Below the pieces are notes generated by a model. It worked only from the letters and a program-made list of their open reading frames with translations. It ran no database searches and was not told the DNA's origin. A stretch of DNA of 64,000 nucleotides from a virus. Made by a program: the position numbers and the translations under genes. Positions 12,924 to 49,246 of this stretch are shown in pieces (the stretch's first letter is position 1; every line of letters starts with the position of its first letter). The stretch lies in IMG/VR virus record IMGVR_UViG_3300025381_000009, one strand, 5' to 3'.

Positions 12924-14036
12924 TTAGCAAGATGGAATTGGATTACCATTTGCATCAGTCAACACTCCAGGATCTTGACTAACAGTTGTATTCAATCCAC
13001 TTGATGTGTAAACTGGATTTCCATTTGCATCAGTTAAAACTTGAGCGGTTCCTGCACCAGTAGAAGGAGTTGAAGAAAAGAAGTTTGAAAGAGAAGCGAT
13101 ACCGCATTTGCCCAAAACACCTTGTGCAAGAGATCCAAGACCTGCAACCTGTGAAAGAGGTGAAGATGCATATGCACCAGGAATTGGTGCAGTCTTGATA
13201 CAGCTTGTTGCTGTAGGCATTGTGAACCCTCTGAGAACGCAAGATTCCGCTTTTGCAACAGATAATGGATACAAAGCTTTATTTTGAGCAATTGTGTATT
13301 GACACTGACCAAGTTTTGCAAGATTAGATGTGCAAGCAATACCAAGGTTAGATTGAACATTCGCCAAGCAACCAAGCAATTTACCTGCATTGAGTTGGTT
13401 AGCTGTCTGAGCCTTGGCTGTACAAATAGCTTGTGTATAGCCTGTTTTAAGCGCACACGCTTGTTGTCCTGTAATACCTAGGTCAGCGTTAGCCAGTACC
13501 TGTCCAAGCGCTCCTGCACCCCTTTGTGAGCCAAATTGACCGCTTCCTACAATACCTGCTGTTGCTTGAGGTGCTAGGTTCTGAGCAATATTAGCTTGAC
13601 CCAAGTTACCAATAGCATTAACTACGCACTTGGTATAAGGGTTCATGTAGTTCTGAGCCATCTGGGATATGCAAGAACCTGCAACTCCCGCCGCTGTCCC
13701 TGTTGCGGCGTTCAGCGTGGGCTGATAATTACCTGCATTTTGAGATGCTTGGCAAAATGCCTGTGTCTGCAACCCTTGCGCTTGTATCGGGCCTGCCGTA
13801 GTTGCACTAGCTCCCCCTGACTGTGATTGTTTGGCAAGGTTGTTGAGGTAGCACATATAAAACGCAGGAGCGGTTGTTGCCGTCTTTTGCGTAGTAGTGA
13901 TAGGCGCTAAAGCACCACCCTGTAAAACAGAACCAGATGTCGCTCCACTAGCCTGTCCTAAGCACGCAGGTGCAGGATTTAAATTGGACGCTGTGGTCGC
14001 CGTAGGTGTTGCAGTATTTACTGATGAGAGTGCCAT
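12924..14036 (-). CDS. DNA transfer/pilot protein (gp7-like), Cys-rich variant
   Basis: YMNPY and GQFGSQRG motifs, A/Q/G/T-rich; 14 Cys, only 4 Asp + 1 Glu. Confidence 0.6.
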   Translation of the reverse strand: MALSSVNTATPTATTASNLNPAPACLGQASGATSGSVLQGGALAPITTTQKTATTAPAFYMCYLNNLAKQSQSGGASATTAGPIQAQGLQTQAFCQASQNAGNYQPTLNAATGTAAGVAGSCISQMAQNYMNPYTKCVVNAIGNLGQANIAQNLAPQATAGIVGSGQFGSQRGAGALGQVLANADLGITGQQACALKTGYTQAICTAKAQTANQLNAGKLLGCLANVQSNLGIACTSNLAKLGQCQYTIAQNKALYPLSVAKAESCVLRGFTMPTATSCIKTAPIPGAYASSPLSQVAGLGSLAQGVLGKCGIASLSNFFSSTPSTGAGTAQVLTDANGNPVYTSSGLNTTVSQDPGVLTDANGNPIPSC

Positions 14037-15349
14037 TATTTACCTTCCATGTATGACAAAGGACTCTTAGCCTTTGGTGGGATTTTATTTATAGATGCTG
14101 ATCTTTTGTGTTCACGAATAGCCTCACGCATCTCGTCAAGCTTCTTAGCCCCTTCTTTATTTGATCCACCACCTAAAGCGGTAACCAAAGATGCAGGGAA
14201 TACGAACTCGCCATCAGCAATCATCGCATTAATGTGTCCACCCTCGGAGTGATTCTCATAGTGCTTATGTGGGAATTGGTTCATAAAGTGGTGCAAAGAC
14301 TCAGCCCCTGCCTTGTTAGAACCGTCTCCAAGAGCGGCGACAATGTCGGCATCCATAACGTAGTCCCCATCCTTTAAAACCGCAGGGATGTCGTCTGATT
14401 GGCCTGTACCACGCCCTTGGGCATAGTGTCCAGTAATGCCAGTCACAAATTCAGGTTTATGTGTGTGCGCCAATCCACCCTCCTTAAATCCAGTTGTTCT
14501 TTGCATATAAGGGAATACACCCCCGCTAGGCATAGCAGATCCAGTAATTAGATTAGGAGTTGTTGTCGCTCCTAAAATTTCTGAACTTGGGTTATAAAGC
14601 TGATTTTGCTGTGCAGGCGTAAGACCTGTCGTTGCAAGTGGCGATAAAAATGTTCCCGAACCACTTGATGTACCCGTAAATAAACCCGTTGGAGTCAAGG
14701 GAGAGCTTGGAGCGCTACTGTAATTATTGGTAACCGATTGAGTTGGAGTAGTAGGATTTGCAGAATAAGACTTTGAATTCAAGGGTGTTGATGTTGGAGC
14801 CAACATCTGTTTTACCCCTTGATTAATCCCTTGTTGAACTAACTTTTGTTGTAATCCACTTGGTAATCCAGAAGATGCAGATCCAGGCACAGTTGCATCA
14901 GCACCTGTTGATGTTGTGTACTGACACAAAGCACCATTAAGCGTGTTTGCAGGAGTTGTTGGAGTTAAAGCATTACCAGAAGTTAAATTAGTTGTAGTTG
15001 CTTGAGGAGCGGTATAAGGGCTTCCATCAGCATTAACTGGTTGCTGAGTAATGGAGTCTTGAAAACCAGTGGGCGAGTTAGCGCTTGCCTCAAGAGCATT
15101 TCCTTCAGAAGTTACGGTTGATGTTGCGCCAGTAGGAACTGAGTCTGTGGCTGAGCTAACAACTTGTGTTGCGCCATCAACAGCCGCCGCACTTCCTACG
15201 GCTTCACCAGTACCGAAAGTACCAACTGTCGCCGCATCTGTGCCAAGTCCTGCTCCTGCATCAATTAGCGTGGGACCAACTACATCTGTAGCCGCCACCG
15301 CCGCAGGCGCACTATCAGCCACTGCCCCCAATAACGCATCAAAGCCCAT
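14036..15349 (-). CDS. Internal virion protein with duplicated C-terminal GTGxSDxIPAxL.DG(D/E)(Y/F)V module
   Basis: Low-complexity T/S/P/A N-terminus; FKEGG then GRGTGQSDDIPAVLKDGDYVMDAD; second copy HINAMIADGEFVFPA after HSEGG. Confidence 0.6.
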   Translation of the reverse strand: MGFDALLGAVADSAPAAVAATDVVGPTLIDAGAGLGTDAATVGTFGTGEAVGSAAAVDGATQVVSSATDSVPTGATSTVTSEGNALEASANSPTGFQDSITQQPVNADGSPYTAPQATTTNLTSGNALTPTTPANTLNGALCQYTTSTGADATVPGSASSGLPSGLQQKLVQQGINQGVKQMLAPTSTPLNSKSYSANPTTPTQSVTNNYSSAPSSPLTPTGLFTGTSSGSGTFLSPLATTGLTPAQQNQLYNPSSEILGATTTPNLITGSAMPSGGVFPYMQRTTGFKEGGLAHTHKPEFVTGITGHYAQGRGTGQSDDIPAVLKDGDYVMDADIVAALGDGSNKAGAESLHHFMNQFPHKHYENHSEGGHINAMIADGEFVFPASLVTALGGGSNKEGAKKLDEMREAIREHKRSASINKIPPKAKSPLSYMEGK

Positions 15350-15352
15350 AAC

Positions 15353-34589: not shown

Positions 34590-36056
34590 TTACTTCTTGG
34601 CTCTACCGCCGTGCTTTCTAACCATTTCAGGATTTACAAAACCTCTTCCTGCGCCTGCACTTCTTGGAGTAATCCTTGAAGCTTCAGCGTAAGAAGCGGA
34701 ATCTCTAGCCCTTTGCTTAGCATCAGCAACGTCTTGTGGAGATACATCTCTCATATTTTGACCAGGAGCAAATTCCATCATCCTTCGATCATAATCAGAT
34801 ATAGCTCCCCCATCCGCATGATGCTTTACTTGTCCACCCTTTTTGAAGGTGCCAGACAAGCGAGTTATCGCAACTGGTGGAGATGCAGGCTTTTTACCTT
34901 GAGGCATAGCCACAGCAGAACCCTGTTTATTAACAGCGCCCCCCGTGGCGAAGTGCTTTTTTGAAGCCTTGCCTCCGTGCTTAAAGCCACCTGCATTACC
35001 TTCCTTGACAGCGCCAGTAGTCTGCATACGCACACCAGGCTTAGTTGTGTCAGCAGGACGGTTTTCCCAATTTCCACCTTCAACAGTGTCTTTTAGGTTT
35101 AAGTCAGGAGCGGCGCTTCCACCTTTGGCAAAGTGGTGCTTACCACCATGCTTCATGTGAGCCTTACCACCGTGCTTGAATCCACCTGCGTTTGACTCTT
35201 TAACATCACCAGTACCATGTACGGAGTCGTGATGCTCGCCATCAACCATCATTGTGTTTTCATACTTTTTGGCAACATTTTCAGAAACAGTTCCACCAAT
35301 AGCGTATTTACCGCCCTTGCACATAGCTTTGTGGTGCTCCATCATTTTGCGATGATGAGCAGATCCACCTTCTTTGCACTTCTCAGCGTAATGCTTAGCC
35401 ATAGCCTTGTGGTGTTGCATAGATCCTTCTGGGTGACCAGAAACCTTATGAGCCTTACCACCATGCTTGAAACCGCCTGCATTGCCCTCTTTGACCATGC
35501 CAGTGCCATGAACTTTGTCATGGTGCTCACCATCATGCATTTCAGTCTGTAAGAACTTACCAGGTGCTTTTTCGTCAGTAGTTTTAGTCTCAAACTTGTC
35601 GATCCCTTTGCCCATTGCTGAGCCACCTTTTTTCAAGCCGTGATGAGCTTTACCCGCTTTCATGCTTTCATGATGCTTAAGTTCTTTCTCCATCTTAGCC
35701 ATCTTAGCGTCTTCACGATGTTGCTTGGCTTTAGACTCAACCTCTCCACCGTGAGCTTTATGAGCCTTACCACCCTTTTTCATCATGGGTGAGTTCATGC
35801 CTTGCATTGCAGCGCGACGAGCGGCTAAAGCACCCATTAAAGGGTTTTTAGAAGGCATCATTCCACCACGAGCAGGCATATTCATCATGCCACCCACTGC
35901 TTTGTGCATGGATTTATGACCATGCTCTTCGTGCTCTTTCATAGACTTATGATGAGCAGAACCACCTTTTTTGAGCTTTAAAATAACTGAAGGTTCATCA
36001 GTTATCATTTTTGGCATTTGGCTAAAGCCTCCTGCACCTTTGCTTGATTTGGCCAT
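34590..36056 (-). CDS. His/Lys/Met/Gly-rich low-complexity protein with many xxxGG repeats (probable internal core protein)
   Basis: LKKGG, MKKGG, FKHGG x3, FAKGG, FATGG, YAIGG, HADGG etc.; internal repeat DGEHHDxVHGTGxVKExNAGGFKHGGK. Confidence 0.7.
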   Translation of the reverse strand: MAKSSKGAGGFSQMPKMITDEPSVILKLKKGGSAHHKSMKEHEEHGHKSMHKAVGGMMNMPARGGMMPSKNPLMGALAARRAAMQGMNSPMMKKGGKAHKAHGGEVESKAKQHREDAKMAKMEKELKHHESMKAGKAHHGLKKGGSAMGKGIDKFETKTTDEKAPGKFLQTEMHDGEHHDKVHGTGMVKEGNAGGFKHGGKAHKVSGHPEGSMQHHKAMAKHYAEKCKEGGSAHHRKMMEHHKAMCKGGKYAIGGTVSENVAKKYENTMMVDGEHHDSVHGTGDVKESNAGGFKHGGKAHMKHGGKHHFAKGGSAAPDLNLKDTVEGGNWENRPADTTKPGVRMQTTGAVKEGNAGGFKHGGKASKKHFATGGAVNKQGSAVAMPQGKKPASPPVAITRLSGTFKKGGQVKHHADGGAISDYDRRMMEFAPGQNMRDVSPQDVADAKQRARDSASYAEASRITPRSAGAGRGFVNPEMVRKHGGRAKK

Positions 36057-36068: not shown

Positions 36069-37121
36069 TTAAGCTTGGGTATTACCAAGTAAACCAGTTG
36101 TTGTGGCATTAGGACCAACTTGGATGGCTGTCAAACCAAGAGTTAGAACCAACTTAGCGGAACCATTTAAAGTACCACCAGGCGCGTATGTACCACGCAC
36201 ATCGGGAGTTACAGAGGTTGATGTCAATTGAGGAACAAGACTTATACCTGAAGTAATTGTTGTACCACCTGTTGCAACGTAAGTACCCGCTAGGAAGTTA
36301 GCTTGTGTAGTAGACAACTTGCCAGTTGTACCAGTCAAATTAGTCCACCAGTAAGTCGTATTAAGCGACACACCAGTCAAAGTACCCAAAGCACCAGTCA
36401 ATTGAATCAATGTTCCACTTGGCGGAGAATAAGCAACAGTTACAACGCCAGGAGTAGCCGATGTAAAGTTGGTAATTGATTGAGTGTTGTAGTTGGTTGT
36501 ATTTGCGTAGTAACCATAAGTCAAAGTTCCTGAGTCGTTAGACAAAGAACCTGTGAATCTGTTACTTAGAATATACGATTCATCACTGATACGTGCAGGC
36601 AGTCCAAGAATATTTGTTGTATCAATAGATACTGCAACTGCGGTAGCAGCGGAGAAGGCAATAGAGTAAACCTGGAAAAACGCTTTACGTCCCTTGGTTT
36701 GTGTAGAAGCTACAGTACCAGACTGAATGATTTCAGTCATAGAGTTACCGTAGTAATCATAACCAGTAATTGTGATTACTGAGTTGGTCGGGCTACCAGA
36801 AGCAGTTGTACAAGCAACAGCACGGGGGTAGTCAAACTGCAATACAGTTGTACCATCAGTTCTTACGACCTGAGTTGTGCCGTTAGTTGCCGAAGCAGTT
36901 GCTAACTGTGTACCACTGTATGTTGTCGCTACTGTAGGTGTTTTTGCGGCCAAAACAGCAGCAACAGCACCCGCAACAGCAGTTGTATCGTATAAATAAA
37001 CACGTCCCATAGGTCCAAAACCTACAGACATGGGGGATGGATCACCTAACGCACTATTGACGTTTGTACCAACGTAAGCTTGTGCAGAACCTAAAAATAG
37101 GTCATCTGAAAATTGGGGCAT
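36069..37121 (-). CDS. Capsid decoration/head-associated protein
   Basis: Directly after MCP; MPQFSDDLFLG, GPMGRVY; T/A-rich. Confidence 0.55.
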   Translation of the reverse strand: MPQFSDDLFLGSAQAYVGTNVNSALGDPSPMSVGFGPMGRVYLYDTTAVAGAVAAVLAAKTPTVATTYSGTQLATASATNGTTQVVRTDGTTVLQFDYPRAVACTTASGSPTNSVITITGYDYYGNSMTEIIQSGTVASTQTKGRKAFFQVYSIAFSAATAVAVSIDTTNILGLPARISDESYILSNRFTGSLSNDSGTLTYGYYANTTNYNTQSITNFTSATPGVVTVAYSPPSGTLIQLTGALGTLTGVSLNTTYWWTNLTGTTGKLSTTQANFLAGTYVATGGTTITSGISLVPQLTSTSVTPDVRGTYAPGGTLNGSAKLVLTLGLTAIQVGPNATTTGLLGNTQA

Positions 37122-37196: not shown

Positions 37197-38111
37197 TTAC
37201 ATACCAGGTGTACCGAACAACGCTCTAGGATCTGTCCATCCTAGTACATAACGCTCTGTAGCCTTGTAACGCATAGAGTCAGTCTCGAAGTCACCTTCCA
37301 TAGTCTTCTCTAAACGACGACGCATTAACAGCTTCATGCCTTCTGGCGCATCTGTCTGCACCCACCATGCGGTGGCTGAAGTCAAACGTGACAGAACTGC
37401 GGCACCCTCATCCAACAAGCCAATAGACTTGACGGGGTTGATGTCGTTATTAGCTGTTCCCGTGCGTAACACAGATTTGAGCAACACTTCAGCTTGGAAA
37501 ATATTGCCTGGAGCCACAACCAACTGGCGTGGTACCAAACGAATTTTCTTCTGGTTATTGTCAACAGCGTTACGAATCTGAATCAACATTTGCTCTAAAG
37601 ATGTCTGTGACAGCACGGCGGCGGTAGACAATTGATTAGAGAACGTACCAATTGTGATTGGATGCGCTGTGTTGATTAAAGATACGCCATCACCACCAAC
37701 ATATCCTGAGTTAAAGGAGTTGTTGAGGATGTTTGCGGCTAGGGTTTCCTTCGTCTCAATCAAAGATTGTGCAAGGTGTCTTGCATAAACTTGACCAATA
37801 CGGATATGGTCACCGTCCTCAACGAGTGTCTTAGTCAGTGCAAAGGCAAGGCCATACACTAAATAAACATAACGCTGTAGGAATAACACTCCACCCTGTT
37901 GGTATGACACTGGTGTGCCATCAGGGAGTTGTGGTGCGGCGCCAAATCCATAAAGGACTGGCTCTTCATGGTAATTCCTTGGAATACCTTCTTGTTCACG
38001 GAAAACACGTGACCATTCGTCTTCACGAAGATCATATACGCCATCAAAACATTCGTTAAGAATAGGCTCAACGATACTTCTAAAGTCCGTACTTCGCATT
38101 GGTGCGGCCAT
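37197..38111 (-). CDS. Major capsid protein (HK97 fold, Mu gpT-like)
   Basis: 304 aa after scaffold; LFSNQL..LSQTSLE, PRQLVV, DFETDSMRYKATERY..GWTDPR. Confidence 0.9.
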   Translation of the reverse strand: MAAPMRSTDFRSIVEPILNECFDGVYDLREDEWSRVFREQEGIPRNYHEEPVLYGFGAAPQLPDGTPVSYQQGGVLFLQRYVYLVYGLAFALTKTLVEDGDHIRIGQVYARHLAQSLIETKETLAANILNNSFNSGYVGGDGVSLINTAHPITIGTFSNQLSTAAVLSQTSLEQMLIQIRNAVDNNQKKIRLVPRQLVVAPGNIFQAEVLLKSVLRTGTANNDINPVKSIGLLDEGAAVLSRLTSATAWWVQTDAPEGMKLLMRRRLEKTMEGDFETDSMRYKATERYVLGWTDPRALFGTPGM

Positions 38112-39259: not shown

Positions 39260-40219
39260 TTAGTTACTCCTTGTTAAACGGGCTTCTGATGCGTATCGCT
39301 TGATCATTTTTGTGCGTTTTACTGGGTCATCCCAGAATCCCGCATCCTTCATAGCTCTTACCTGTTCAGGAGTAAGAGTATAAGAATTTCGGCCTGCGCC
39401 TGCCGAAGATGATTCGCGTCCGCTACTTGCTACCACGTTTCTTGGTCGCTGTCTAACTACAGGTTCATCGTCTGTATCTGTATTGTATCTATGCGGTAGA
39501 CGCCTTTGCAAGCGATTATCTAATTCTTCCCAATATTCTTGCCTAGTTGGGTCCCAACCCTCTTCCACAAGACGTTTATCAATGACTTTAGCTATTTCGC
39601 TATCCTCGTCTGGGGCGTCTGGTCGATACCAACTATTACGCTCCATCCACTCTGAGGCATTGCGCTGTAAGCGTGGGTCTGGAATGTTTTGTTTTTGTGC
39701 AGGTTGTTGTGAGGCTTGCTTTTTCAAGTTTTTCAAGGCATCCAACTGTTGGCGTGTCTCATAAAGTAAATCTTGAGCCTTCGCCATTGCCTCCCCATCA
39801 CTGGAGCTTGTTGCCTCTGTTATCTTGAGACGAGCGTATTGAAGCCTAAGTTCTTGGTCTTCAATTGCCTTATCAACCCGAGCTATTTCTGCGCCGTGAG
39901 TCTTACGCTCAACCTGAGATAGGCGTTGCATTAACTCTTCGTTTTGTCGCTTAAGTTGCTGAAGTTGGACATCCTTCTCGGCGTTGTCTTGTTTAGCCCT
40001 TTGGCGACGCATTTTTCTGCGGTTAATCTTTTCCTGACGCACTTCATCTGTGTCGTCTGGGTGATCATCGTCGTGGGATGCTTTTTGTTTAGGCTCCTTG
40101 ATTTCGTCAATAGACTCATCTTGGGGTGCCATGCTTTCGGGTAGGTCAAAGACCACCGAACCATCAACTTCCTCTTTAACTTTTATCTCTTCTTCTGGTT
40201 TTTCTATTACTTCAGTCAT
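39260..40219 (-). CDS. Capsid scaffolding protein
   Basis: Acidic N-terminus, long coiled coil, W..RN.WY, C-terminal LTPEQV.AMKDAG.W. Confidence 0.75.
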   Translation of the reverse strand: MTEVIEKPEEEIKVKEEVDGSVVFDLPESMAPQDESIDEIKEPKQKASHDDDHPDDTDEVRQEKINRRKMRRQRAKQDNAEKDVQLQQLKRQNEELMQRLSQVERKTHGAEIARVDKAIEDQELRLQYARLKITEATSSSDGEAMAKAQDLLYETRQQLDALKNLKKQASQQPAQKQNIPDPRLQRNASEWMERNSWYRPDAPDEDSEIAKVIDKRLVEEGWDPTRQEYWEELDNRLQRRLPHRYNTDTDDEPVVRQRPRNVVASSGRESSSAGAGRNSYTLTPEQVRAMKDAGFWDDPVKRTKMIKRYASEARLTRSN

Positions 40220-40251: not shown

Positions 40252-40665
40252 TTACACATATTCCGCCATTGCTAACGGATCGCCTTTAACCCTAGATATG
40301 ACTTCATGATCGTTTAGCACCATAAATAGCGCCTTATCCTCATTCTTGTCTTCTCCAGGAACTGGAACCTCCCATCTATCCCCACCCCATTTAGGAACGC
40401 GAATAAAATCTCCCACCTTTACCCATGAACCTTCAGGCCAAGAAGCCATCGTGTCACGGTTACGGTAGGCCAATGGGCCAATAGCCAATACTTTTGCAAC
40501 CATGTTTGCCCATTTTTCGGTTTCTCGAGTTTCCTCGGCCAAAATAATGCCAGACGCAGTCATTTTTTTCTTAGTTCTTCTAAGTTGTACCAATACTCGT
40601 GCTCCCAAAGGCTCTACACCAGGTTCTACCTCTGGAAAAGCCCATGCCAAGTCAATATCACTCAT
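40252..40665 (-). CDS. groES: GroES-like co-chaperonin
   Basis: EPLGARVLVQ, T.SGIIL, VLAIGP, VKVGD, VLNDHEV. Confidence 0.8.
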   Translation of the reverse strand: MSDIDLAWAFPEVEPGVEPLGARVLVQLRRTKKKMTASGIILAEETRETEKWANMVAKVLAIGPLAYRNRDTMASWPEGSWVKVGDFIRVPKWGGDRWEVPVPGEDKNEDKALFMVLNDHEVISRVKGDPLAMAEYV

Positions 40666-40847: not shown

Positions 40848-40993
40848 TTCTTCTTTTTAGCTTGCTCTAATGGGCTTTTCTTGCCTTCAGATCCACCCTT
40901 GGGTGTATAACTTGTCCCATCAAGCTTTTCGCCTTGCGCTATACGCTTGTGTTGGGGCACATCAATACCCTTTTGCTCATTTTCACTGGCCAT
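40844..40993 (-). CDS. 49-aa basic protein missing from the track
   Basis: MASENEQKGIDVPQHKRIAQGEKLDGTSYTPKGGSEGKKSPLEQAKKKK; AGGAGG RBS; overlaps portal stop. Confidence 0.65.
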   Translation of the reverse strand: MASENEQKGIDVPQHKRIAQGEKLDGTSYTPKGGSEGKKSPLEQAKKKK

Positions 40994-43535
40994 AATCACC
41001 TCCTAAGTGTCGTTGTGCTTCATTTTGAAGCGAAATTGCAGTGTCATACTGCTCTTGCTGAAGCTTGGCGGCGTCCCTTGTCAGTTGCGCCGAAGCTATT
41101 CGCTCTTTAGTCAGATTGTCAGTAGAGTTGATGGCTATGTCCAACTCCCTCTGACTCTGTACATTTTGTTTTTCATTTGCCAATTTGGCCTGTGCAATCT
41201 GAGTTGTAGCTTGCATTTGCTGACCCTTGAGCGCCATTTCTTGCTTATCACGCTCAGTTCTACGTTGTGTCTCGGCCATTGATGTCTGAATAAGCGCCTG
41301 TGCATCTGCATCAGGTTGTTGCGCCTGTTGTTGTGCTTGTTGCCTTAGTTCTATCAAATGTTGGAAATCAGGCATCAGTTGGGCAAAGATCTTGTTTTGT
41401 AAATCCATTCCCACGTGCTGAGATGCCAAAGCAAAAATCTTGTCAATCTGCGCCGTAAATTTAGGATCTTGGTATTGAATAGATTGTTTCTTGTCGTCCT
41501 TATTTGCATAACCATTCATCTGCTGTAAATACCACATAGTCATGTGTTGCTTTAAATGGTCAATCATAGGTATGACCAACCCATTAGCAATAATAGGATT
41601 GGCACCTAATAATGGGTTTTGCATAAAATCAAAGTGCGTTTGAATGTGAGCCAAGTGGTCTTGCTCAGGGTATGCGTTAGCCGCTTGACCCAGTGACATG
41701 GCCACATTCTCATCCGCGGGGTTTTGTTTCTTAGGCTCGGCCTCTTCAACCATTAACTCATTGAGTCCTGGTACTTTCATCTGTTTCATAAAACGCTCAA
41801 TCACAACCTTTTGATTGAACTGTGCAGGGTATTTGTCCATCAATGCCATAACAGCCTGAGATTGCGCCATCCTTTGCGTTTCAGAGAAAATATGTGGGTC
41901 TGAAACCGGCACTATATCTGTGTTGCGCTCAAAGTCTTCTTTGGATATTTCCAAATCTTTGACAATCTCGCCTTTCCTTTGGTCATCTAGATACCAACGG
42001 TTAAGTCTGCCAAGAATTTTTAGGACCCTAGCTTGAGATTGATGCAACCTAGCGTGGATGGCTGAGAATACGGCAGATCCTTGCTCAATAAGGGCTTGTG
42101 TGGTACCTACAGGCGCTTGCGCTGTGACGTCAGCTATCTTCTCCTCAGCAGTGGTTATAACTCCCTTAGCCGCGTTATCTAACCATCCAAGCAACTCAAA
42201 CAAAACAGGGCTAGGAGGATTAAAAGGCATAGGCATAGCAATTTGCCTGATATCGTTGATACCTGGACCTGCTTCAATCTCCGCAACCTGCGTAACCTCG
42301 ACCTGTTGAGATTGACCACTAACCTTAGCACCCTTAAGCTTAAGCATAGTAGCAGAGTTGTTGATATGTGCAGTATCGAGTAAAGCGCGTAAAGCACCAG
42401 TAAGAGCGGCGCTAAGGCCACCGATGAGATGAGGGAGGCCAACTGCATAGGCTCCTCTCCACGGAATGAACTTAAATTCCACCACCCAGTCAAGCTTGGT
42501 TTTTGTTTCATCGCCGTCCTCCCAGTTTCTGTATAAACCAACAACCTCGTGGTCTAGTGCGTCAATCATTAATATGTAAGGTGCCATATCCCCATCTGTA
42601 TATTTATCGTCTTCAAACTCTAACCATACATATGAATGATAAAAACGTCTAACTCCATCTTCGTTGTCCTCATAGCGCTTGCCTTCAATCTTGTTGTTGG
42701 CTTTTTGTGGACCAGTAAGCTCTGGCTCCATTGTGGCACGTATTAAATTAACATCACGATACATACCAGACTTGATGCGCTTTTTAACTTCCCACTCTGT
42801 AATTTCGTGTACTTCTGTAGCCCGTTGAGCAGTGTAGAAGTTGGACGCAGCGAACGGTACAATAACTCTATCAATTGGCAAGAACTCTACGCAAGGGCGT
42901 TTTTTATCGTCGTCATACCACATCTTGAAGTATTGGGAACCACCAAGAGGAAGTTGGGTCAATAACTGCTCTTGTTCGTCGCGGAACTCCTCAATCTGCT
43001 CAGTGATCTGCCAATTCATAAACTCTACCTTACGCTCCGCACGTTCGGTTTTGGCTTTATCAACATCACCTAATATTTTTGTCTTCACTGGCCCATCAGG
43101 TGGAAACATTTCTTTAATGGCTCTGGCCGCAAAGTCTACGCAAGACTCAGCCATCACAGGATGAACTACCTTGGAAGCCCCAAAGAACGTCGCACCGCCT
43201 GGTGAATCATTGCCCATGCCAGTACGCCTAATACCATCTTCATATTGTTTGTCTCTTAGTTTTCGCGCTTCCTTATCTTTTTCAATAAGGTCTGCATACT
43301 CAAGCGCCAATCCTTTAACATCAAATACCTCGGCCAAGTTTTCGTAGAACTTCTTGTCCTCCGATGGTCCTTTAAAGTCTGGGTCATGAACAATAACAGA
43401 ACCATCAGCCAGTTCCTCAAGTTCCATATCCTCTGGAGGCATACCAAATTCAACCGAGCCGTCTTCGTTCTCAGTCATTTCCATGCCGTCAATGTTACGG
43501 CCATAGTCTTGTTCAATGGGCATTTGTGTTGCCAT
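40983..43535 (-). CDS. Portal protein
   Basis: 850 aa; VHPVMAESCVDFAARA, GSQYFK.WYD, PVGTTQALIE, Q-rich coiled C-terminal barrel. Confidence 0.9.
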   Translation of the reverse strand: MATQMPIEQDYGRNIDGMEMTENEDGSVEFGMPPEDMELEELADGSVIVHDPDFKGPSEDKKFYENLAEVFDVKGLALEYADLIEKDKEARKLRDKQYEDGIRRTGMGNDSPGGATFFGASKVVHPVMAESCVDFAARAIKEMFPPDGPVKTKILGDVDKAKTERAERKVEFMNWQITEQIEEFRDEQEQLLTQLPLGGSQYFKMWYDDDKKRPCVEFLPIDRVIVPFAASNFYTAQRATEVHEITEWEVKKRIKSGMYRDVNLIRATMEPELTGPQKANNKIEGKRYEDNEDGVRRFYHSYVWLEFEDDKYTDGDMAPYILMIDALDHEVVGLYRNWEDGDETKTKLDWVVEFKFIPWRGAYAVGLPHLIGGLSAALTGALRALLDTAHINNSATMLKLKGAKVSGQSQQVEVTQVAEIEAGPGINDIRQIAMPMPFNPPSPVLFELLGWLDNAAKGVITTAEEKIADVTAQAPVGTTQALIEQGSAVFSAIHARLHQSQARVLKILGRLNRWYLDDQRKGEIVKDLEISKEDFERNTDIVPVSDPHIFSETQRMAQSQAVMALMDKYPAQFNQKVVIERFMKQMKVPGLNELMVEEAEPKKQNPADENVAMSLGQAANAYPEQDHLAHIQTHFDFMQNPLLGANPIIANGLVIPMIDHLKQHMTMWYLQQMNGYANKDDKKQSIQYQDPKFTAQIDKIFALASQHVGMDLQNKIFAQLMPDFQHLIELRQQAQQQAQQPDADAQALIQTSMAETQRRTERDKQEMALKGQQMQATTQIAQAKLANEKQNVQSQRELDIAINSTDNLTKERIASAQLTRDAAKLQQEQYDTAISLQNEAQRHLGGDYGQ

Positions 43536-43537
43536 GT

Positions 43538-46500
43538 TTATCCTCTTGTACTTAATTCGTGACGCATTATTTCTATGTTGTCAGTTATTTGAACATTGGC
43601 TTTTTTATTTGCCTTTTTAGCTTTAACCCTACCACCCTTTTTCTGACCAGTATATTTTTTAATTAAGTCGTTGTATTGTCCGACTTCATTTAAATATTGG
43701 TCATCAACCAATTGGTGAGGAAATACTTTTTGTATGGTTCCAGTAAAGTCAGTAGGATTCTTAGTCGATCTAACGTGTTGAGTAGCATCTGGAAATGTAA
43801 TTTCAAATGGTGCAGGAGGGGTCTGTGGCTGCAATGCTAATCCTTGAATGCCTTTGTTATAAGTATTGTGATTAGCCGTGTCTGTTAATTCAGCGCCCGG
43901 AACCATCTTACCCGCAGACAATCCAGTTAAATTAACCTCCATGTTACGCAGTGCAGGCTCTGTAATGGCCCATTGAATATCCAATCCATTTGGCAATCCA
44001 TGAGCACTGGTAATGTCAGGAGTTTTCATCCTACTGTTGTACCATTTACGTAACTCTGGATCTTCTTGCATAGCTTTGTATGCGCTTTCTGGATCAGCTA
44101 TACCAGGCCAATGCGGAAAATTAATGTGCTCATACTCACCAGTCTTAGCATTTTTCTTAACATAGCCATTAGCAATGATGTTATCAAAGCTATACATCTG
44201 TTCTGGTTTCATCTTTGACAAATCAGTAGCACGAAGGTTTGCATCTGCTAAATGCATAGCAAAGTTGTTAGCTACTGGACCCATACCCAAATGCTGACCA
44301 ATGACACGGCTTGGTTCGTAATAACCCGCTAATCTTGTAATCTTATCTTGCGCCATTTGAGCGGGATCTTCACCAGAGGCCCAAAATAATGGATGCTCAA
44401 GCGACATTTTGCCGAGTCCATATTTTGAACCACCTTCCTGTATAGAGTTGATGTCTTCTATATCTCCTGCATGACGCAAGATTGAATCAGAAATAGTTTG
44501 GTCTCCAGGAATAGCTACATTCACATCGCCAATTTGTGGTGTATATGCGTCTGCCTTTTGAGCGGTTCCAGTTGGTTGTATCTGATACGGAAGGCCCTTA
44601 AGCCTTTCGCTCTCCCTCATTGATCTTCCTGCAAGATTAACCGTCTTAGTCGAGTTCTCAGGCCTGACGTGCTCACCAATCATCTGCTTGGCAACTCGCG
44701 TAGCAATTTTGTCAATATCTTCTAAAGTTTTTGGAGTAGATCTTGGTATGCTCAAAGGAACAGCAGGTACTTTCTCGGCCTTGGTTATAAATTGACCAAC
44801 TTTCTTGAGAACATTATTAGTTAATGATCCACCGCCTGCCATATGAACCTCATGCCTCATCATGTCCAAATCGTCTGTTACGTGGACTTTACCGCCCCTT
44901 TGATAGTTTGGCATAAACTCTAAAGGATTGAGTGTGACAGACCCGTTAGCAAGCTTTAAAGATGGGTTTATGAAGCCTGGGTGTTTTACTTGTCCACCAT
45001 CTGCATAGGCAGGTAAACTTTCTGTGGCTACGTTTTGTTTCATCTCTGGTGTGAATTCCATGTAATGAAGAGGAGTAGAGTTTAGTTCTCTAGCTTTTAT
45101 GTTTGCTTCTTGTTGCGTTGGATGGCTTGAAATTATGTTGTCATTACCATCCATGACATTAAAACTATCGCCCTCGATTGTTCTGTTTGCGTAATGTTTA
45201 CCACTATTTAATACTGGTAACTCATTAAGCTTCATCTCAGCGCCGTATGGCTTACCAATGTCGTTGAAGGTGTTGGGGATGCGCTTGTCGTATGCGGCTT
45301 TCATGCCCTCGCCACCAATATTCAAATCTTGATTTGCTAACTCTCTCCAACGATTGCCATCAAATCCACTATTTTCACTTACATCAAAAGGCTTGGATTC
45401 AAGCAGTTTACTAGCGGCTTCCTTCCCAATGTAATCAGGTAATTCATGTGGATTAATATCTTCATCAATTACTTTATTTCCACGATGATCAAAAGCTTGT
45501 AGCTTCCCCGCTGTTGGCTCTCCATGTAAATGCTCACCAAACTTACCAGTTCCAGAAGCAGTGTCAACATAAATAAGCTTGTTTATTTGCTTAGCCAAGC
45601 TATATCTATCTGCCTGCTCTTTCCCGGGGGTCAATGCTATTGCGTCATACCCATTGTCAATGGCGTGTTTGACTAAGTCCTTGCTGACCATGTGCTCCCA
45701 ATTATTTTTGAATGGAGCGTCTGGTACTGCATTTATATTTTGTCTTGTCAAATGATCAAGATCATACATCTGACTATTTAATTCAAGCAATTTAGGCGTT
45801 ATTCCATTTGCTTCTTCCATCAAACTTTCAAATTTTAGTCCTGCCTCTGGCTCTCTTAAAGCTTGCTCATGCAAAATTCTTCTGCGCTTGTTAAGATCAT
45901 CAAATGTTTGTTTTAGTTCTTTTAATTGCTCTATTTTTGCTTCTGGATTTGAGTCCTTATAACCATACTTACGTCCATCCTGATGCCAATCAGATTGAAT
46001 CTCCTCAACATGTAAGATTTTCTTGCCATCAGGTGTTCTACGGTCAACTGTTCGAGCACTAGCTAATACATTAGGCTCAGCACCGAAATGATGTTCATTT
46101 GCCACAAAAGGTGGTTGTCCTTCTGGCTCATACTTGTACAAATGCTCCTGATAATTATTACCACCAGGAAGCTTAAAACCCTCATGGTGTGTCTGATTCT
46201 CATCTATCTCATGATTTTCAATATGAGATTCAGCATCCTCTCTCGATGGGAATGGATGGGCTGTGACTGGTTCACCATTGCTATCGACAACCCAGTGTTT
46301 GTCGTCTAGTATGCTATCAGGATTGTGTTTAATAATCTGTAAAGGTTCTGCGTCATTACTCAATATTTTTTTATATACTTTTGGCACAGGACGTTTAGCA
46401 AGTTCAGCTTGGAACTCATCCTTAGTCATCTTAGGCAGATCGTTGATCTCGTGCAAGTTTCTGTCTGCCAGTTCAGCCTTCTTTACGCCGGGCTTCTTGC

Positions 46501-49246
46501 TAAGCTCAATGATAAACTCTTTGCCCGTACCCTTACTCCTTGGCAACTCAGCCGCGGTCTTATCCACAGCAGAGAATAGTTTTGATACTCCTTTGCCAAT
46601 CATCTTGTCCACAATCCCACCGCCTGCAAATCCTTTGGGGCTATCCTTCATCTGGATCTCATGGCGCATCATATCCAAGTCATTAGCAACATGAACCTTA
46701 CGCTTGACCCTTCCACCTTTAGCTAAACCCTGTGGATTATTAGGAGTTACTGTTGGCTGTACAGTAGGAACATCTCCTACTTTGTTACGAAGCTCATCAA
46801 TTTTTCCAAGATTATATAGTTGAGTCTTTAATGGATCACCTTCACCATGTTCTTCTGGATTATTTAATACTTTTTTTATTTCATTAAAATGGTAAGGAAA
46901 TTCTGGATGAATTGATTGCAACGATCTACGCTCAAGCTCATTCATCTCTTGTTGAGTATAAACTGGCTCATTAGTTGAAAACTCTTTGCTAAGAGCATCA
47001 TTAAATTCTCTAGTTGCTTGACGATGAGGTTCAAATGCAGGATGAGTATCTAAAAAATCGTTTGCGTTTTTAACCATTGACTCAATATGAGGAGCAACTT
47101 GTTGGTGTAAAACATTTTCTTCGTCTTTAGTTAAATAATCTGGTACTTTTAAACCAATACTTTCTCCCAATTTTTTTAACTCAGGATGAGTATCAACAAA
47201 TCCAGAGTTCTGTATATCTCCCTTAATAGGAAAGCCAGTAGTACGTTGGAAGTTCTGTACCATTGGAATGTACTTATCTACAGGCTTTTTGTTGCCTTTA
47301 CCTTTAATCTGAACAATGTCGTCTGGCTGTGGTGGAACACCCGCTTCTTTTAACGCTTGAATCGTATGCTCATCTGTCAAATTTTGAATGTCAGGATTGC
47401 GTTGTCTCCATTCACGAACATATTGACCGTATTGTGCTTTTGTACTCTGTGGTAACATGGCAAACGCTTCACCACTAACTGGATATGGATTTGGCTTAGT
47501 TTCAATTGTTACATGAGGCTCACCCTTAGCATCCCTCAAGCTAAATATGCGTGAACGTCCTTCTAATACGTCAGGACAATAGCCACCAACACAGTGACCC
47601 ATTGTGTCGCCTTCATACTGTAGGGCATCAGATAGTTTTTGATATGCATTTTCACTGTGTGTTTTTTCTGTGGCATTTTTTAATGCCTCTTCAGGAGTTG
47701 CGTAAAACAATCCTTTATCGCCAGAGATAATGTCGCCATGTGGCCCTTTAACGAACCAAGGCGTGTTTTGAAAATCCGCCCTATCATCTTTTGTCACCGT
47801 GTAACCTTCGGGTAACTTATATCCCTCTGGCATTTTTTCAGGTGCCAACTCAATCCATTTGTGACCAGATGGGTATTCTTTGACTACGGGCATACTTTCA
47901 GTCTGCTTAATGGCAGTCTCAGCCATCTTCTTAGCCATATCCTCGTTGTACTCATGCGCTCTACGAACCGCTCTATCAATGCTGTAGTTCTTTAGATCTT
48001 CTGGTTGTATTCGACCGTTTGCCAAATCCTCTTTAAGTACATCCATTAAATGATCAAATCCTAAAGTTTCCAAATCAAAAGCATGATGTACTGTATCTTC
48101 TGGATTCTTTTTAAGTAACCAAGGATTTTCATGAACAGGACCAATTTCAGTTTTAACAAAAGGATCTTTTTCTAGTATTTTATTAAATGTTAAACCTTCA
48201 CCACCAAACGGTTTATCACCTGCCACTTCTTTAACTTGGTTCATGTAATGATTTGCCTCTTCCTCATTCTTAAACGATTGAGCAGGCAAAGAACCACCTC
48301 TTACTTGATATCTATTCTCATTTAAATATTCTTTAACCGGGACATTATTAATTGATTTATCAGTTAATTTTTCCCATTTCTTACCAAGTTCTGTAGTAGC
48401 AAATCCTTTCTCTGGTAAATTTGCTTCTCTTCTTTTGTTATAAATAAGTGGCCCAGAAATATGGCTATCATCAATTGGAGCGTGTATTATTCCTTGGTCA
48501 GCCAACTTACGTATTGGGTCGTGCTCAGTACCCATTTCATTTTTAACGTAATTGGTTAGATTTTTGTCAATCCATTTGTTAACGGCAATCTCATTATTGT
48601 GCTCACGCAAACGACGAATCGATCTTTCTTGCAATGGATCAGTTGGGTCTTTTGCCGACTGCTCAAATCCTTCAAAAAGCGATGGACTAATTAATCTGTT
48701 TTCGGACTTCAATCCTTTTAAAAATCCTTCAGGGCTATGATTCAACCAACTACCACCCTTGGGCTTGACAGCGAACATAGCCATCTGTGGCTCAGCAAAT
48801 GAACCAGGCATTAACTTCTGGCCTGTAGCAACCCTGTCTGCAATCTCTTGCCCAACCATCTTGGCGCCTTTTACCGCCGCCTCACCCGCTCCAGGGATAA
48901 CAGCAAAGCTACCACCGAAGTCAGCCATCTTGTTGAGGTTAGAGTTGGGATCTTTGGCTAAGTCAGGTATCAAGCCCTTGATGTCCTCAGAGCCTCCAGG
49001 AATAGTGCCTGGCTCATACCCTTCAAACTTCCTGCGACGGACGTCACGTGCCATGTTATGCAAACCAATGGCTGTGTTAGCCATGTCAACAGGCAATCCT
49101 GCTGTAGTTGCAACAGCACTGCGTCCACCAGAGTAGATCATGTCGAGCAATGCTCTGGCAGGTATGCCCATGCCAATTGCATCTGCTTTGATTTGTTCAA
49201 GTGTCAGGGGTTTGTTTGCTTTAGGATTGGGCATAGCACCTCGCAA
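43538..49246 (-). CDS. Large polyvalent virion protein with PcfJ-like domain and EEIQSDW domain
   Basis: 1,902 aa; YEGDTMGHCVGGY...IFSLRD..G.PHVTIE (PcfJ-like); HF...NVLA.AR..DR...LHVEEIQSDWHQ; GG/MRHE linkers. Likely start ATG 49234. Confidence 0.7.
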   Translation of the reverse strand: MRGAMPNPKANKPLTLEQIKADAIGMGIPARALLDMIYSGGRSAVATTAGLPVDMANTAIGLHNMARDVRRRKFEGYEPGTIPGGSEDIKGLIPDLAKDPNSNLNKMADFGGSFAVIPGAGEAAVKGAKMVGQEIADRVATGQKLMPGSFAEPQMAMFAVKPKGGSWLNHSPEGFLKGLKSENRLISPSLFEGFEQSAKDPTDPLQERSIRRLREHNNEIAVNKWIDKNLTNYVKNEMGTEHDPIRKLADQGIIHAPIDDSHISGPLIYNKRREANLPEKGFATTELGKKWEKLTDKSINNVPVKEYLNENRYQVRGGSLPAQSFKNEEEANHYMNQVKEVAGDKPFGGEGLTFNKILEKDPFVKTEIGPVHENPWLLKKNPEDTVHHAFDLETLGFDHLMDVLKEDLANGRIQPEDLKNYSIDRAVRRAHEYNEDMAKKMAETAIKQTESMPVVKEYPSGHKWIELAPEKMPEGYKLPEGYTVTKDDRADFQNTPWFVKGPHGDIISGDKGLFYATPEEALKNATEKTHSENAYQKLSDALQYEGDTMGHCVGGYCPDVLEGRSRIFSLRDAKGEPHVTIETKPNPYPVSGEAFAMLPQSTKAQYGQYVREWRQRNPDIQNLTDEHTIQALKEAGVPPQPDDIVQIKGKGNKKPVDKYIPMVQNFQRTTGFPIKGDIQNSGFVDTHPELKKLGESIGLKVPDYLTKDEENVLHQQVAPHIESMVKNANDFLDTHPAFEPHRQATREFNDALSKEFSTNEPVYTQQEMNELERRSLQSIHPEFPYHFNEIKKVLNNPEEHGEGDPLKTQLYNLGKIDELRNKVGDVPTVQPTVTPNNPQGLAKGGRVKRKVHVANDLDMMRHEIQMKDSPKGFAGGGIVDKMIGKGVSKLFSAVDKTAAELPRSKGTGKEFIIELSKKPGVKKAELADRNLHEINDLPKMTKDEFQAELAKRPVPKVYKKILSNDAEPLQIIKHNPDSILDDKHWVVDSNGEPVTAHPFPSREDAESHIENHEIDENQTHHEGFKLPGGNNYQEHLYKYEPEGQPPFVANEHHFGAEPNVLASARTVDRRTPDGKKILHVEEIQSDWHQDGRKYGYKDSNPEAKIEQLKELKQTFDDLNKRRRILHEQALREPEAGLKFESLMEEANGITPKLLELNSQMYDLDHLTRQNINAVPDAPFKNNWEHMVSKDLVKHAIDNGYDAIALTPGKEQADRYSLAKQINKLIYVDTASGTGKFGEHLHGEPTAGKLQAFDHRGNKVIDEDINPHELPDYIGKEAASKLLESKPFDVSENSGFDGNRWRELANQDLNIGGEGMKAAYDKRIPNTFNDIGKPYGAEMKLNELPVLNSGKHYANRTIEGDSFNVMDGNDNIISSHPTQQEANIKARELNSTPLHYMEFTPEMKQNVATESLPAYADGGQVKHPGFINPSLKLANGSVTLNPLEFMPNYQRGGKVHVTDDLDMMRHEVHMAGGGSLTNNVLKKVGQFITKAEKVPAVPLSIPRSTPKTLEDIDKIATRVAKQMIGEHVRPENSTKTVNLAGRSMRESERLKGLPYQIQPTGTAQKADAYTPQIGDVNVAIPGDQTISDSILRHAGDIEDINSIQEGGSKYGLGKMSLEHPLFWASGEDPAQMAQDKITRLAGYYEPSRVIGQHLGMGPVANNFAMHLADANLRATDLSKMKPEQMYSFDNIIANGYVKKNAKTGEYEHINFPHWPGIADPESAYKAMQEDPELRKWYNSRMKTPDITSAHGLPNGLDIQWAITEPALRNMEVNLTGLSAGKMVPGAELTDTANHNTYNKGIQGLALQPQTPPAPFEITFPDATQHVRSTKNPTDFTGTIQKVFPHQLVDDQYLNEVGQYNDLIKKYTGQKKGGRVKAKKANKKANVQITDNIEIMRHELSTRG

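What the first reader, a model, noticed from the sequence alone, without database searches (positions are those of the whole stretch)
14036..49246. Hydrophobic-x-x-Gly-Gly motif across unrelated late proteins: candidate phage polyprotein-processing system
Seen: four non-homologous late proteins carry the same (F/Y/L/M/H/K)-x-x-G-G pentapeptide, usually with K/A at P4. They are 43538..49246 (LAKGG, FAGGG, YADGG, YQRGG, MAGGG, QKKGG), 34590..36056 (more than 15 copies), 31355..31879 (FKEGG, KKEGG) and 14036..15349 (FKEGG, HSEGG). In three of them the motif sits at apparent module boundaries. Established: di-glycine-directed maturation is used by adenovirus protease ((M/I/L)XGG-X), the ASFV SUMO-like protease pS273R on polyproteins (GG-X), and C39 peptidases on double-glycine leaders. 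Inference: this phage may cleave internal/core proteins after GG during head maturation. I recognise no HK97-type, S14/S49 or clan CE protease in the window, so the protease would be novel, autocatalytic or host-encoded.
Basis: partly seen in the sequence, partly recalled or inferred. Interest (0 to 1): 0.88.

Follow-up and report, generated by a model that had tools for sequence, protein, structure and literature searches.

The report
Gly-Gly peptide tags on phage cargo
A short Gly-Gly peptide really does recur at the joints and tails of the proteins this uncultured freshwater phage probably carries inside its head, but it looks more like a portable address or docking tag than a proven protease cutting site, and no protease was found.

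Summary
The motif is real. In the window, [FYLMHK][AK]xGG occurs 21 times in the four named proteins (3,001 aa) against 2 times in all other ORFs (17,759 aa). Across 80 related IMG/VR loci the sharper form, hydrophobic-[A/K]-x-G-G-x-[V/I], occurs 155 and 188 times in two protein families, where shuffling predicts about 2.

The four proteins are three different cases:
- The 1,902-aa protein is a polyvalent (multi-effector) protein. Its three modules are separated, and ended, by a bipartite tag: a GG turn plus an amphipathic M-R-x-E-L helix.
- The 488-aa His/Lys-rich protein and the 174-aa DUF6321 protein carry only the GG core.
- The 437-aa protein carries a tape-measure-type repeat that begins with GG.

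Tags sit at module boundaries. Relatives encode the same modules as separate genes split at these points.

Cleavage is unproven. I found no peptidase by Pfam or PHROGs in the larger ORFs, or by fold search of the conserved module. 66 of 77 family members end with a tag where nothing remains to be released, and a third of terminal tags lack GG.

Best reading: a capsid-cargo address or docking tag, possibly also processed. The scan noted the same motif class before on other DNA (e1-3279085, e1-4996286).

The parts
43538..49246 (-). Polyvalent (multi-effector) protein, three modules each followed by a tag. The real start is probably the ATG at 49234. Its stop is 2 nt before the portal start, and the last codons (AGAGGA) serve as the portal's ribosome-binding site.
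   Evidence: (PcfJ, residues 540-587). Atlas holds it from residue 5.
46607..46741 (-). Tag 1 (residues 836-880): LAKGG + V-H-V-x-N-D-L-D-M-M-R-H-E-I helix + FAGGG. Lies between module A and module B.
45020..46606 (-). Module B (residues 881-1409), the most widespread module of the family. Its fold matches 'large polyvalent protein associated domain' proteins, with a helical hairpin and a weak GNAT-like resemblance. No protease fold.
   Evidence: A1 and model m1064a2758bec, pLDDT 75. AFDB clusters E 2e-15. PDB searches.
44822..45019 (-). Tag 2 (residues 1410-1475): YADGG, then YQRGG + D-L-D-M-M-R-H-E-V helix + MAGGG. Lies between module B and module C.
   Evidence: The GG before module C is invariant in 9 homologues at 23-75% identity to the window protein. 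pLDDT below 50.
43658..44821 (-). Module C (residues 1476-1863), function unknown.
   Evidence: AF2 gave low confidence.
43541..43657 (-). Tag 3, the extreme C-terminus: QKKGG + basic stretch + I-E-I-M-R-H-E-L + S-T-R-G-stop.
34590..36056 (-). 488-aa His/Lys/Met/Gly-rich protein with 16 GG-core motifs. The GG columns are the conserved islands of the family alignment. Candidate internal head protein.
   Evidence: 188 strict motifs in 38 family members vs 1.3 expected; at least 3,972 metagenomic relatives, none named.
31355..31879 (-). 174-aa fusion of three mini-proteins (phrog_16759 block, phrog_16028 block, DUF6321) joined at FKEGG (31736..31750) and KKEGG (31595..31609).
   Evidence: Split genes in L014, L020, L024.
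14039..14494 (-). C-terminal part of the 437-aa ejection-cluster protein: two copies of a tape-measure-type repeat, each opened by GG (FKEGG 14474..14488, HSEGG 14237..14251). GG is followed by Leu/His here, not x-Val.
   Evidence: phrog_6090, E 7.7e-5; tblastn to tape measure genes; PDB 8zdo tape measure, E 0.023, weak.
40983..43535 (-). Portal protein, translationally coupled to the polyvalent gene. Candidate receptor of the terminal tag (untested).
   Evidence: (phrog_1216).
39260..40219 (-). Scaffold-like 319-aa protein (2.5% Gly). It has no motif in this window, but 9 of 63 relatives match the strict motif (more match the looser form), as K-A-[D/E]-G-G-x-V about 40-60 residues from the N-terminus.
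36069..37121 (-). 350-aa unassigned protein between the capsid gene and the 488-aa gene. It co-occurs with the tagged proteins and is absent from phage RW. Role unknown.

Best explanation
The Gly-Gly motif is the core of a portable peptide tag that marks accessory cargo proteins of this phage lineage. The tagged proteins are a polyvalent effector protein encoded next to the portal, a very basic His/Lys-rich protein, and small basic proteins.

In its full form the tag is about 25-30 residues: two hydrophobic residues, x, K/Y/M/F, A, x, G-G, x, V, then a short spacer and an amphipathic helix (D/E/Q-M-R/K-x-E/A-L), often followed by a basic tail. I infer that GG makes a tight beta-turn that pairs Ala(-2) with Val(+2).

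I also infer that the tag docks the protein it follows onto a component of the assembling head (portal, scaffold or capsid interior), so that each 'module plus tag' unit is loaded. Fusion of such units produced the 1,902-aa protein, which is why the tags now lie at module boundaries.

Shown: the motif, its restriction to these families, its positional conservation, the boundary position, the fission/fusion pattern and the terminal tags.

Inferred: the hairpin structure, that these proteins are inside the capsid, and that the tag binds a head component. Cutting at or near the tag after loading, as with T4 capsid-targeting sequences, is compatible but not required.
For: - Restriction to a few families. 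The strict motif occurs 155 times in the polyvalent family and 188 in the His/Lys-rich family, against 2.2 and 1.3 expected. It occurs 0 times in portal, terminase, capsid, GroES-like and other families.
- The full tag is a defined unit. A 32-column profile of 48 tags finds 413 copies in 97 family members and nothing comparable in other families. In 1.84 billion representative proteins it finds 181 clusters (41 at E<=1e-10). Most are 500-2,000 aa with 2-8 tags, and many have the best tag at the very C-terminus.
- 66 of 77 non-redundant family ORFs end with a terminal tag. 51 have the M-x-x-[E/A]-hydrophobic helix (3.7% background in internal windows, 0.8% in other families' C-termini). 15 have a second conserved tail, T-H-A-H-H-L-E-I-E-E-R-P-L.
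- Where the protein is split into two genes, the upstream ORF ends with GG-x-V plus that conserved tail. Its stop overlaps (ATGA) the start of module B. Synonymous variation shows selection on the peptide, not on the RNA.
- Pfam domains in relatives (ASCH, ART-PolyVal, PcfJ, GP88, GDSL lipase) are bracketed by tags.
- Tags fall in low-confidence, non-globular stretches of the AF2 model, with the helix predicted.
- The polyvalent gene is translationally coupled to the portal gene, and every context examined shows terminase - polyvalent - portal.
- From the literature: polyvalent proteins are thought to be packaged in the head and delivered with the DNA (PMC5512222).
Against: - No receptor was identified.
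- The GG-core motifs of the 488-aa and 174-aa proteins lack the helix, so they may do something different from the full tag.
- There is no experimental evidence that any of these proteins is in the virion. All relatives are uncultured.
- A dense array of 16 motifs in one basic protein is also what a 'diced into peptides' substrate would look like.
Confidence: 0.4

Rival explanations
1. Proteolytic processing sites. An unidentified protease, host-encoded or a cryptic phage fold, cuts after GG. This would release the modules of the polyvalent protein, dice the His/Lys-rich protein into basic peptides and trim the small proteins, by analogy with adenovirus, ASFV or T4 head maturation. It may coexist with a targeting role.
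For: - Motifs lie at module boundaries.
- Relatives encode the modules as separate genes split at the same points.
- Iyer et al. argue that polyvalent proteins must be processed into units (PMC5512222).
- The scaffold-like protein of some relatives also carries the motif.
- Lambda tape measure gpH is cut in its Gly-rich C-terminal region by an unknown mechanism at an unknown site (PMC12617516), and the 437-aa protein has a tape-measure-type Gly-rich module.
Against: - No peptidase family in the larger window ORFs or in 12 polyvalent family members scanned.
- The conserved module B shows no protease fold.
- Gene order is portal - scaffold - capsid with no protease slot, apart from a GroES-like gene.
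- The consensus does not fit adenain or C39 rules.
- Val at P2' and a long helix are conserved.
- Terminal tags have nothing to release, and GG is absent from about a third of them.
- Phage RW, with homologous head genes, has no motif.
Confidence: 0.25
2. A passive joint. The tag would be a flexible beta-turn linker and conserved junction that lets modules be swapped by recombination, like the conserved pre-toxin junctions of polymorphic toxins. It would have no specific binding partner or protease.
For: - Homology breakpoints cluster at tags.
- Module content varies greatly between relatives while tags persist.
- Tags are predicted to be non-globular.
Against: - Selection acts on the peptide: synonymous changes occur within the conserved tail.
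- Hydrophobic positions and an amphipathic helix are conserved.
- Tags are kept at extreme C-termini, where no joint is needed.
- The same core appears in unrelated small proteins' tails.
Confidence: 0.15
3. Chaperonin-recruiting mimic. The tag (K-x-x-G-G-x-hydrophobic-x-P) would copy the GroES mobile loop (K-[S/T]-A-G-G-I-V-L, recalled from the GroES family). It would bind host GroEL and help fold the large modules, in a phage that also encodes its own GroES-like protein.
For: - A GroES-like gene (40252..40665, phrog_3188 E 1.4e-10; Cpn10 in relatives) sits in the head module, and its loop reads T-A-S-G-I-V-L.
- K(-3), GG, the hydrophobic residue at +2 and P(+4) of the tag line up with the GroES loop.

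The alignment is by eye and from memory of GroES.
Against: - The GroEL-binding hydrophobic triplet is not kept. Positions +1 and +3 of the tag are mostly polar.
- The tag profile does not score the GroES-like family (best 0.1 bits).
- Phage RW has the GroES-like gene but no tags.
Confidence: 0.05

Closest known systems
Polyvalent proteins of phages and conjugative elements (Iyer, Burroughs, Anand, de Souza, Aravind 2017, PMC5512222)
   Same: - One polypeptide strings together unrelated effector-type modules (here three; relatives carry ART-PolyVal, ASCH, PcfJ, GP88, GDSL lipase).
- It is encoded among virion genes beside the portal.
- Module B matches 'large polyvalent protein associated domain' models.
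   Different: - No MPTase or other peptidase domain, which that paper proposes as the processing device.
- The paper's text, as searched, does not mention a glycine junction motif ('glycine' 0 occurrences).
- Here a conserved bipartite tag follows every module and ends the protein.
T4 capsid-targeting sequence of internal proteins IPI-III and Alt, cut by the gp21 prohead protease (from established knowledge)
   Same: A short portable peptide shared by unrelated proteins that are loaded into the head. Targeting and processing can be combined in one signal.
   Different: - The T4 signal is N-terminal, about 10 residues, and is cut after (L/I)-x-E by an encoded protease.
- Here the tag is C-terminal to each module, is built on GG plus a helix, and no protease is encoded.
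Adenovirus protease sites (M/I/L)XGG-X and ASFV pS273R GG-X polyprotein processing
   Same: GG recurs in several unrelated core/internal proteins, including a very basic one.
   Different: - P4 here is Ala/Lys, not Met/Ile/Leu. P2' Val and a downstream helix are conserved.
- There is no clan CE protease.
- The motif also occurs at extreme C-termini, and terminal tags can lack GG.
C-terminal coat-binding helices of phage scaffolding proteins (P22, 80alpha; from established knowledge)
   Same: A C-terminal amphipathic helix followed by basic residues, used to hold a protein inside the procapsid.
   Different: - No sequence relation.
- This phage's own scaffold-like C-terminus does not match the tag profile.
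- Binding was not tested.
Gly-rich C-terminal region of siphophage tape measure proteins (lambda gpH to gpH* + gpHC; PMC12617516)
   Same: The 437-aa protein's repeat (GG ... G-T-G-x-S-D ... G-[D/E]-[Y/F]-V) matches tape measure genes. Lambda gpH is cut in its Gly-rich region by an unknown mechanism.
   Different: - This phage has podovirus-type tail genes and no tape measure.
- The lambda cut site is unknown, so no motif comparison is possible.
- GG here is followed by Leu/His/Tyr rather than x-Val.

Membership tests
Polyvalent proteins (Iyer et al. 2017) | Two or more unrelated effector-type domains in one polypeptide | tested here: met
   Three homology blocks with different distributions among relatives. 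PcfJ Pfam hit. Relatives combine ASCH, ART-PolyVal, GP88, PcfJ and GDSL lipase.
Polyvalent proteins (Iyer et al. 2017) | Contains a 'large polyvalent protein associated domain' (LPD) or a partner domain typical of the class | tested here: met
   AF2 model of module B matches AFDB clusters named LPD-containing and ART-PolyVal-like at E 2e-15 to 6e-10. These names are automatic annotation.
Polyvalent proteins (Iyer et al. 2017) | Encoded with virion/late genes of a phage (or the transfer genes of a conjugative element) | tested here: met
   Lies between large terminase and portal, coupled to the portal. Same order in relatives.
Polyvalent proteins (Iyer et al. 2017) | Zincin-like MPTase domain for self-processing (frequent, not obligatory) | tested here: not met
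   No peptidase Pfam family in this protein or in 11 relatives.
Adenain-type (clan CE) GG-directed virus maturation | Site consensus (M/I/L)-X-G-G-X or (M/I/L)-X-G-X-G, with the hydrophobic residue at P4 | tested here: not met
   Logo and tag alignment: P4 is Ala (x2.5 enriched) or Lys; the long or hydrophobic residue is at P5.
Adenain-type (clan CE) GG-directed virus maturation | Virus-encoded clan CE cysteine protease | tested here: not met
   No such family by Pfam/PHROGs in the larger window ORFs. A divergent fold in an unscanned small ORF cannot be excluded.
Adenain-type (clan CE) GG-directed virus maturation | Cleavage after GG in virions | not testable with these tools
   No cultured relative and no proteomic data.
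Double-glycine leader / C39 peptidase substrates | N-terminal 15-30-residue leader with hydrophobic residues at -4, -7, -12 and GG at its end, plus a C39 peptidase/ABC exporter | tested here: not met
   Motifs are internal or C-terminal. Position -4 is mostly His/Arg/Asn/Tyr. No C39 family hit in the window.
T4-type capsid targeting sequence | N-terminal targeting peptide removed by the prohead protease after (L/I)-x-E | tested here: not met
   The tag follows modules rather than preceding them: only 14 of 77 ORFs have a tag hit in the first 40 residues, against 66 of 77 with a terminal tag. No prohead protease found.
Tape measure protein Gly-rich C-terminal module (applies to 14036..15349 only) | Sequence match to the G-T-G-x-S-D ... 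G-E-[Y/F]-V repeat of tape measure proteins | tested here: inconclusive
   phrog_6090 E 7.7e-5. tblastn to annotated tape measure genes at E 4e-4 to 1e-8. PDB 8zdo tape measure E 0.023, two stretches. The protein as a whole is not a tape measure.

The most novel reading that the evidence does not exclude
The tag is a two-in-one code used by a whole lineage of uncultured freshwater phages. The helix addresses cargo to the portal or procapsid. The GG turn is then cut by a protease of a kind not yet known in tailed phages, either host-encoded or a cryptic fold in one of the unassigned head genes (for example 36069..37121, which co-occurs with the tags). This would give a tailed-phage counterpart of adenovirus/ASFV GG-directed core maturation.
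Probability: 0.12. Interest if true: 0.8.

Novelty: new variant of a known kind. Interest (0 to 1): 0.58.

Why it matters
How phages select and load 'cargo' proteins (anti-defence enzymes, toxins, DNA-protecting proteins) into the capsid is known for only a few model phages. A short transferable tag, conserved in hundreds of uncultured relatives and following every module of a polyvalent effector protein, would be:
- a directly testable loading or processing signal;
- a handle for predicting which unknown phage proteins are injected into the host;
- a possible tool for packing foreign proteins into phage heads.

It also bears on how polyvalent proteins that lack a peptidase domain are handled.

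Tried and rejected
- Complex prediction of portal plus residues 1405-1485 of the polyvalent protein gave no verdict. It counts neither for nor against binding.
- AF2 of residues 1395-1902 was of low confidence (mean pLDDT 47). Module C's fold was therefore not searched. The model says only that the tags are non-globular, with a predicted helix.
- tblastn of a tag region against 50,697 phage records found no match. The 488-aa protein matched only MW202545, so no cultured phage with proteomics is available.
- Atlas look-ups of module B and of the 350-aa protein gave unnamed clusters only.
- A full-text search for motif strings returned only primer sequences. Other searches found no paper describing this tag.
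- A by-eye resemblance between the scaffold-like C-terminus (P-E-Q-V-R-A-M-K) and the tag helix was not borne out. The only tag-profile hits in the scaffold family are weak matches near the N-terminus (best 9.3 bits, residues 36-48).
- The GroES mobile-loop mimic idea is kept only as a 5% rival.
- Adenain and C39 readings were rejected on consensus and on the lack of the enzyme.
- No whole genome is held for the window.

Full report
WHAT THE WINDOW IS

The window is a phage genome, with the late genes on the minus strand. The order, from PHROGs/Pfam, is:
- large terminase (49404..50885)
- a 1,902-aa protein (43538..49246)
- portal (40983..43535)
- a GroES-like protein (40252..40665)
- a Gly-poor scaffold-like protein (39260..40219)
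- two small proteins
- major capsid protein (37197..38111, Phage_capsid_4)
- a 350-aa protein
- the 488-aa His/Lys-rich protein
- an 888-aa virion protein
- the 174-aa DUF6321 protein
- adaptor and tail genes, endolysin and spanin
- an ejection-type cluster that includes the 437-aa protein

The nearest records are an uncultured 'Manatee Spring' phage (MW202545) and, more distantly, Caulobacter phages RW, KcrB, RLK and GB2A. The portal finds 282 related IMG/VR stretches, of which 80 were fetched with flanks. The first 11.5 kb and the last 12 kb of the window are diverged copies of each other, at 65-86% identity.

Against composition-matched shuffles, the loose motif is enriched in two proteins and not significant alone in the other two:
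- 1,902-aa protein: 11 vs 3.3, P=0.001
- 488-aa protein: 16 vs 3.9, none of 5,000 shuffles reached it
- 174-aa protein: P=0.16
- 437-aa protein: P=0.11

With Ala/Lys required at -2, the four proteins hold 21 hits in 3,001 residues. All other ORFs of the window hold 2 in 17,759 (P=4e-16).

An unbiased logo of 1,029 non-redundant GG contexts from the related loci gives M/Y/K/F at -3, A/K at -2 and V at +2.

The sharper pattern [FYMLHW][AK]xGGx[VI] was counted across the related loci:
- 155 times in the polyvalent family (2.2 expected)
- 188 times in the His/Lys-rich family (1.3 expected)
- 9 times in the scaffold-like family (0.1 expected)
- 4 times in the DUF6321 family (0.1 expected)
- never in portal, terminase, capsid, GroES-like or the other head families

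These counts include inherited copies, so they measure conservation rather than independent events.

THE FOUR PROTEINS ARE THREE DIFFERENT CASES

(a) The 1,902-aa protein is a polyvalent protein in the sense of Iyer et al. (PMC5512222).
- It has three homology blocks with different distributions among relatives: about 150-700 with a PcfJ hit, 880-1410, and 1480-1860.
- Module B was folded with 22 sequences (pLDDT 75). It matches AFDB clusters named 'large polyvalent protein associated domain' and 'ART-PolyVal-like' at E 2e-15.
- It has no significant PDB match by Foldseek. By VIA-align it shows only a helical hairpin and a weak GNAT-like resemblance.
- Relatives swap in ASCH, ART-PolyVal, GP88, PcfJ and GDSL-lipase modules.
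- Between and after the modules lies a bipartite tag: hydrophobic-hydrophobic-x-K/Y/M/F-A-x-G-G-x-V, a short spacer, then D/E/Q-M-R/K-x-E/A-L.
- A profile of 48 tags finds 413 copies in 97 family members, and only weak core-only hits elsewhere.
- In 1.84 billion representative proteins the profile finds 181 clusters. These are mostly long multi-tag proteins, often with the best tag at the extreme C-terminus.
- Two sampled contexts are the same phage type: terminase - polyvalent - portal - GroES-like - scaffold - capsid.

(b) The 488-aa protein and the 174-aa protein carry only the GG core.
- In the 488-aa family the GG columns are the conserved islands between variable, indel-rich stretches. 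The family has at least 3,972 metagenomic members and no annotation.
- The 174-aa protein is three mini-proteins that match separate PHROG/Pfam families (phrog_16759, phrog_16028, DUF6321). They are joined at its two GG sites.
- Relatives encode these mini-proteins as two genes split at those sites.
- Many small neighbouring proteins in relatives end in K-[A/K]-x-G-G-K-V followed by a few residues and Trp.

(c) In the 437-aa protein each GG opens one copy of a repeat that matches tape measure genes.
- GG is followed by Leu/His, or Tyr in phage RW, not by x-Val.
- This is a separate module of different ancestry, so it should not be pooled with the others.

MODULE BOUNDARIES

- In the polyvalent family, homology breakpoints fall within 15 residues of a tag in 29% of cases, against 7.9% for random positions.
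- The GG before and after module C is invariant in nine homologues at 23-75% identity to the window protein.
- In at least 14 loci the protein is split into two ORFs. The upstream ORF ends with GG-x-V followed by a conserved tail (T-H-A-H-H-L-E-I-E-E-R-P-L). Its stop overlaps, as ATGA, the start of module B.
- Synonymous differences in that tail show that the peptide itself is under selection.

CUT SITE OR ADDRESS LABEL?

I found no peptidase:
- none in the larger window ORFs by Pfam or PHROGs
- none in twelve polyvalent family members
- none in the fold of the conserved module

The gene order, portal - scaffold - capsid, is that of phages which mature without a protease (from established knowledge of T7 and P22).

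The consensus does not fit adenain, where P4 is hydrophobic. It does not fit double-glycine leaders either.

66 of 77 non-redundant family ORFs end with a terminal tag. That is a position where a cut releases nothing but the tag, and only 52 of 77 have any GG in the last 40 residues. So the helix, not GG, is the constant feature of terminal tags.

Caulobacter phage RW shares the portal, GroES-like, scaffold and capsid genes but lacks four proteins: the polyvalent protein, the His/Lys-rich protein, the 350-aa protein and the DUF6321 protein. It has no such motif, apart from the tape-measure-type module. The motif therefore travels with accessory proteins, not with head maturation itself.

The polyvalent gene's last codons form the portal's ribosome-binding site, with a 2-nt spacer.

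Together these points favour a portable 'module plus tag' unit whose tag docks cargo during head assembly.

None of this excludes cutting after loading. Three things keep the cleavage reading alive:
- the dense GG array of the 488-aa protein
- the fission/fusion pattern
- Iyer et al.'s argument that polyvalent proteins need processing

Lambda gpH is a reminder that a phage protein can be cut in a Gly-rich region by a still unknown mechanism (PMC12617516).

WHAT I COULD NOT SETTLE

- The receptor. One complex prediction gave no verdict.
- Whether these proteins are in the virion at all.
- Whether the core-only motifs work like the full tag.
- No cultured relative exists in the collections searched.

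EARLIER NOTES OF THIS SCAN

Two follow-ups on other genomes (e1-3279085, e1-4996286) described the same class of GG motif in freshwater phage cargo proteins and reached similar, equally unproven readings. They are AI notes, not independent evidence. I reached the statistics and the terminal-tag argument here from this window and its relatives.

VERDICT

The protease-system interpretation is partly supported: the shared motif at module boundaries and the absence of a protease hold up, but cleavage is not shown and several features point elsewhere. The tag appears undescribed in the literature I could search. It belongs to a known kind of system, namely capsid-cargo signals on polyvalent or internal proteins.

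Noticed in passing
window 1-11500 and 52000-64000: The two ends of the window are diverged copies of the same early region (65-86% identity, spacing about 52-56 kb). So the record holds about 1.2 genome lengths of two versions joined head to tail: either a tandem arrangement or a chimeric assembly. The exact 488-aa protein is also seen on a contig of 117,615 bp.
   Followed up: partly
L021, L023, L025, L027-L029, L043-L046, L056, L059, L072, L079 (junctions listed): Where the polyvalent protein is split, the upstream ORF ends with a near-invariant 13-residue tail (T-H-A-H-H-L-E/D-I-E-E-R-P-L) directly after GG-x-V. Its stop overlaps the start of module B (ATGA). The tail might re-link the two halves non-covalently.
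   Followed up: partly
window 45020-46606 (-): The most conserved module of the polyvalent protein shows a long helical hairpin and a weak GNAT-acetyltransferase-like resemblance (VIA-align Z 9-11 over 125-152 residues, rmsd 3-5 A; Foldseek local hits to SSAT). This gives no firm function.
   Followed up: partly
window 40252-40665 (-): A GroES-like co-chaperonin gene sits between portal and scaffold, where many phages have the prohead protease. It is conserved in relatives, including Caulobacter phage RW.
   Followed up: partly
window 34590-36056 (-) and relatives: The 488-aa protein is rich in Met and His clusters of the kind seen in metal-binding (Cu/Ag) proteins. Most relatives end in Cys, while small neighbouring GG-tailed proteins end in Trp (often Cys-Trp).
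   Followed up: no
window 49234-49246 (-): The listed TTG start of the 1,902-aa ORF is probably not used. An ATG at 49234 follows a GAGGTG Shine-Dalgarno-like site, and a public record of the protein starts there, giving 1,898 aa.
   Followed up: yes
window 25457-26380 (-): A 307-aa protein with 33.6% glycine (48 GG) and weak matches to tail-fibre families. It inflates any naive GG count in the late region.
   Followed up: no
window 36069-37121 (-): A 350-aa unassigned protein next to the capsid gene is present in the window and MW202545 and was not detected in phage RW (tblastn E<=1e-3). That is the same distribution as the tagged proteins.
   Followed up: partly
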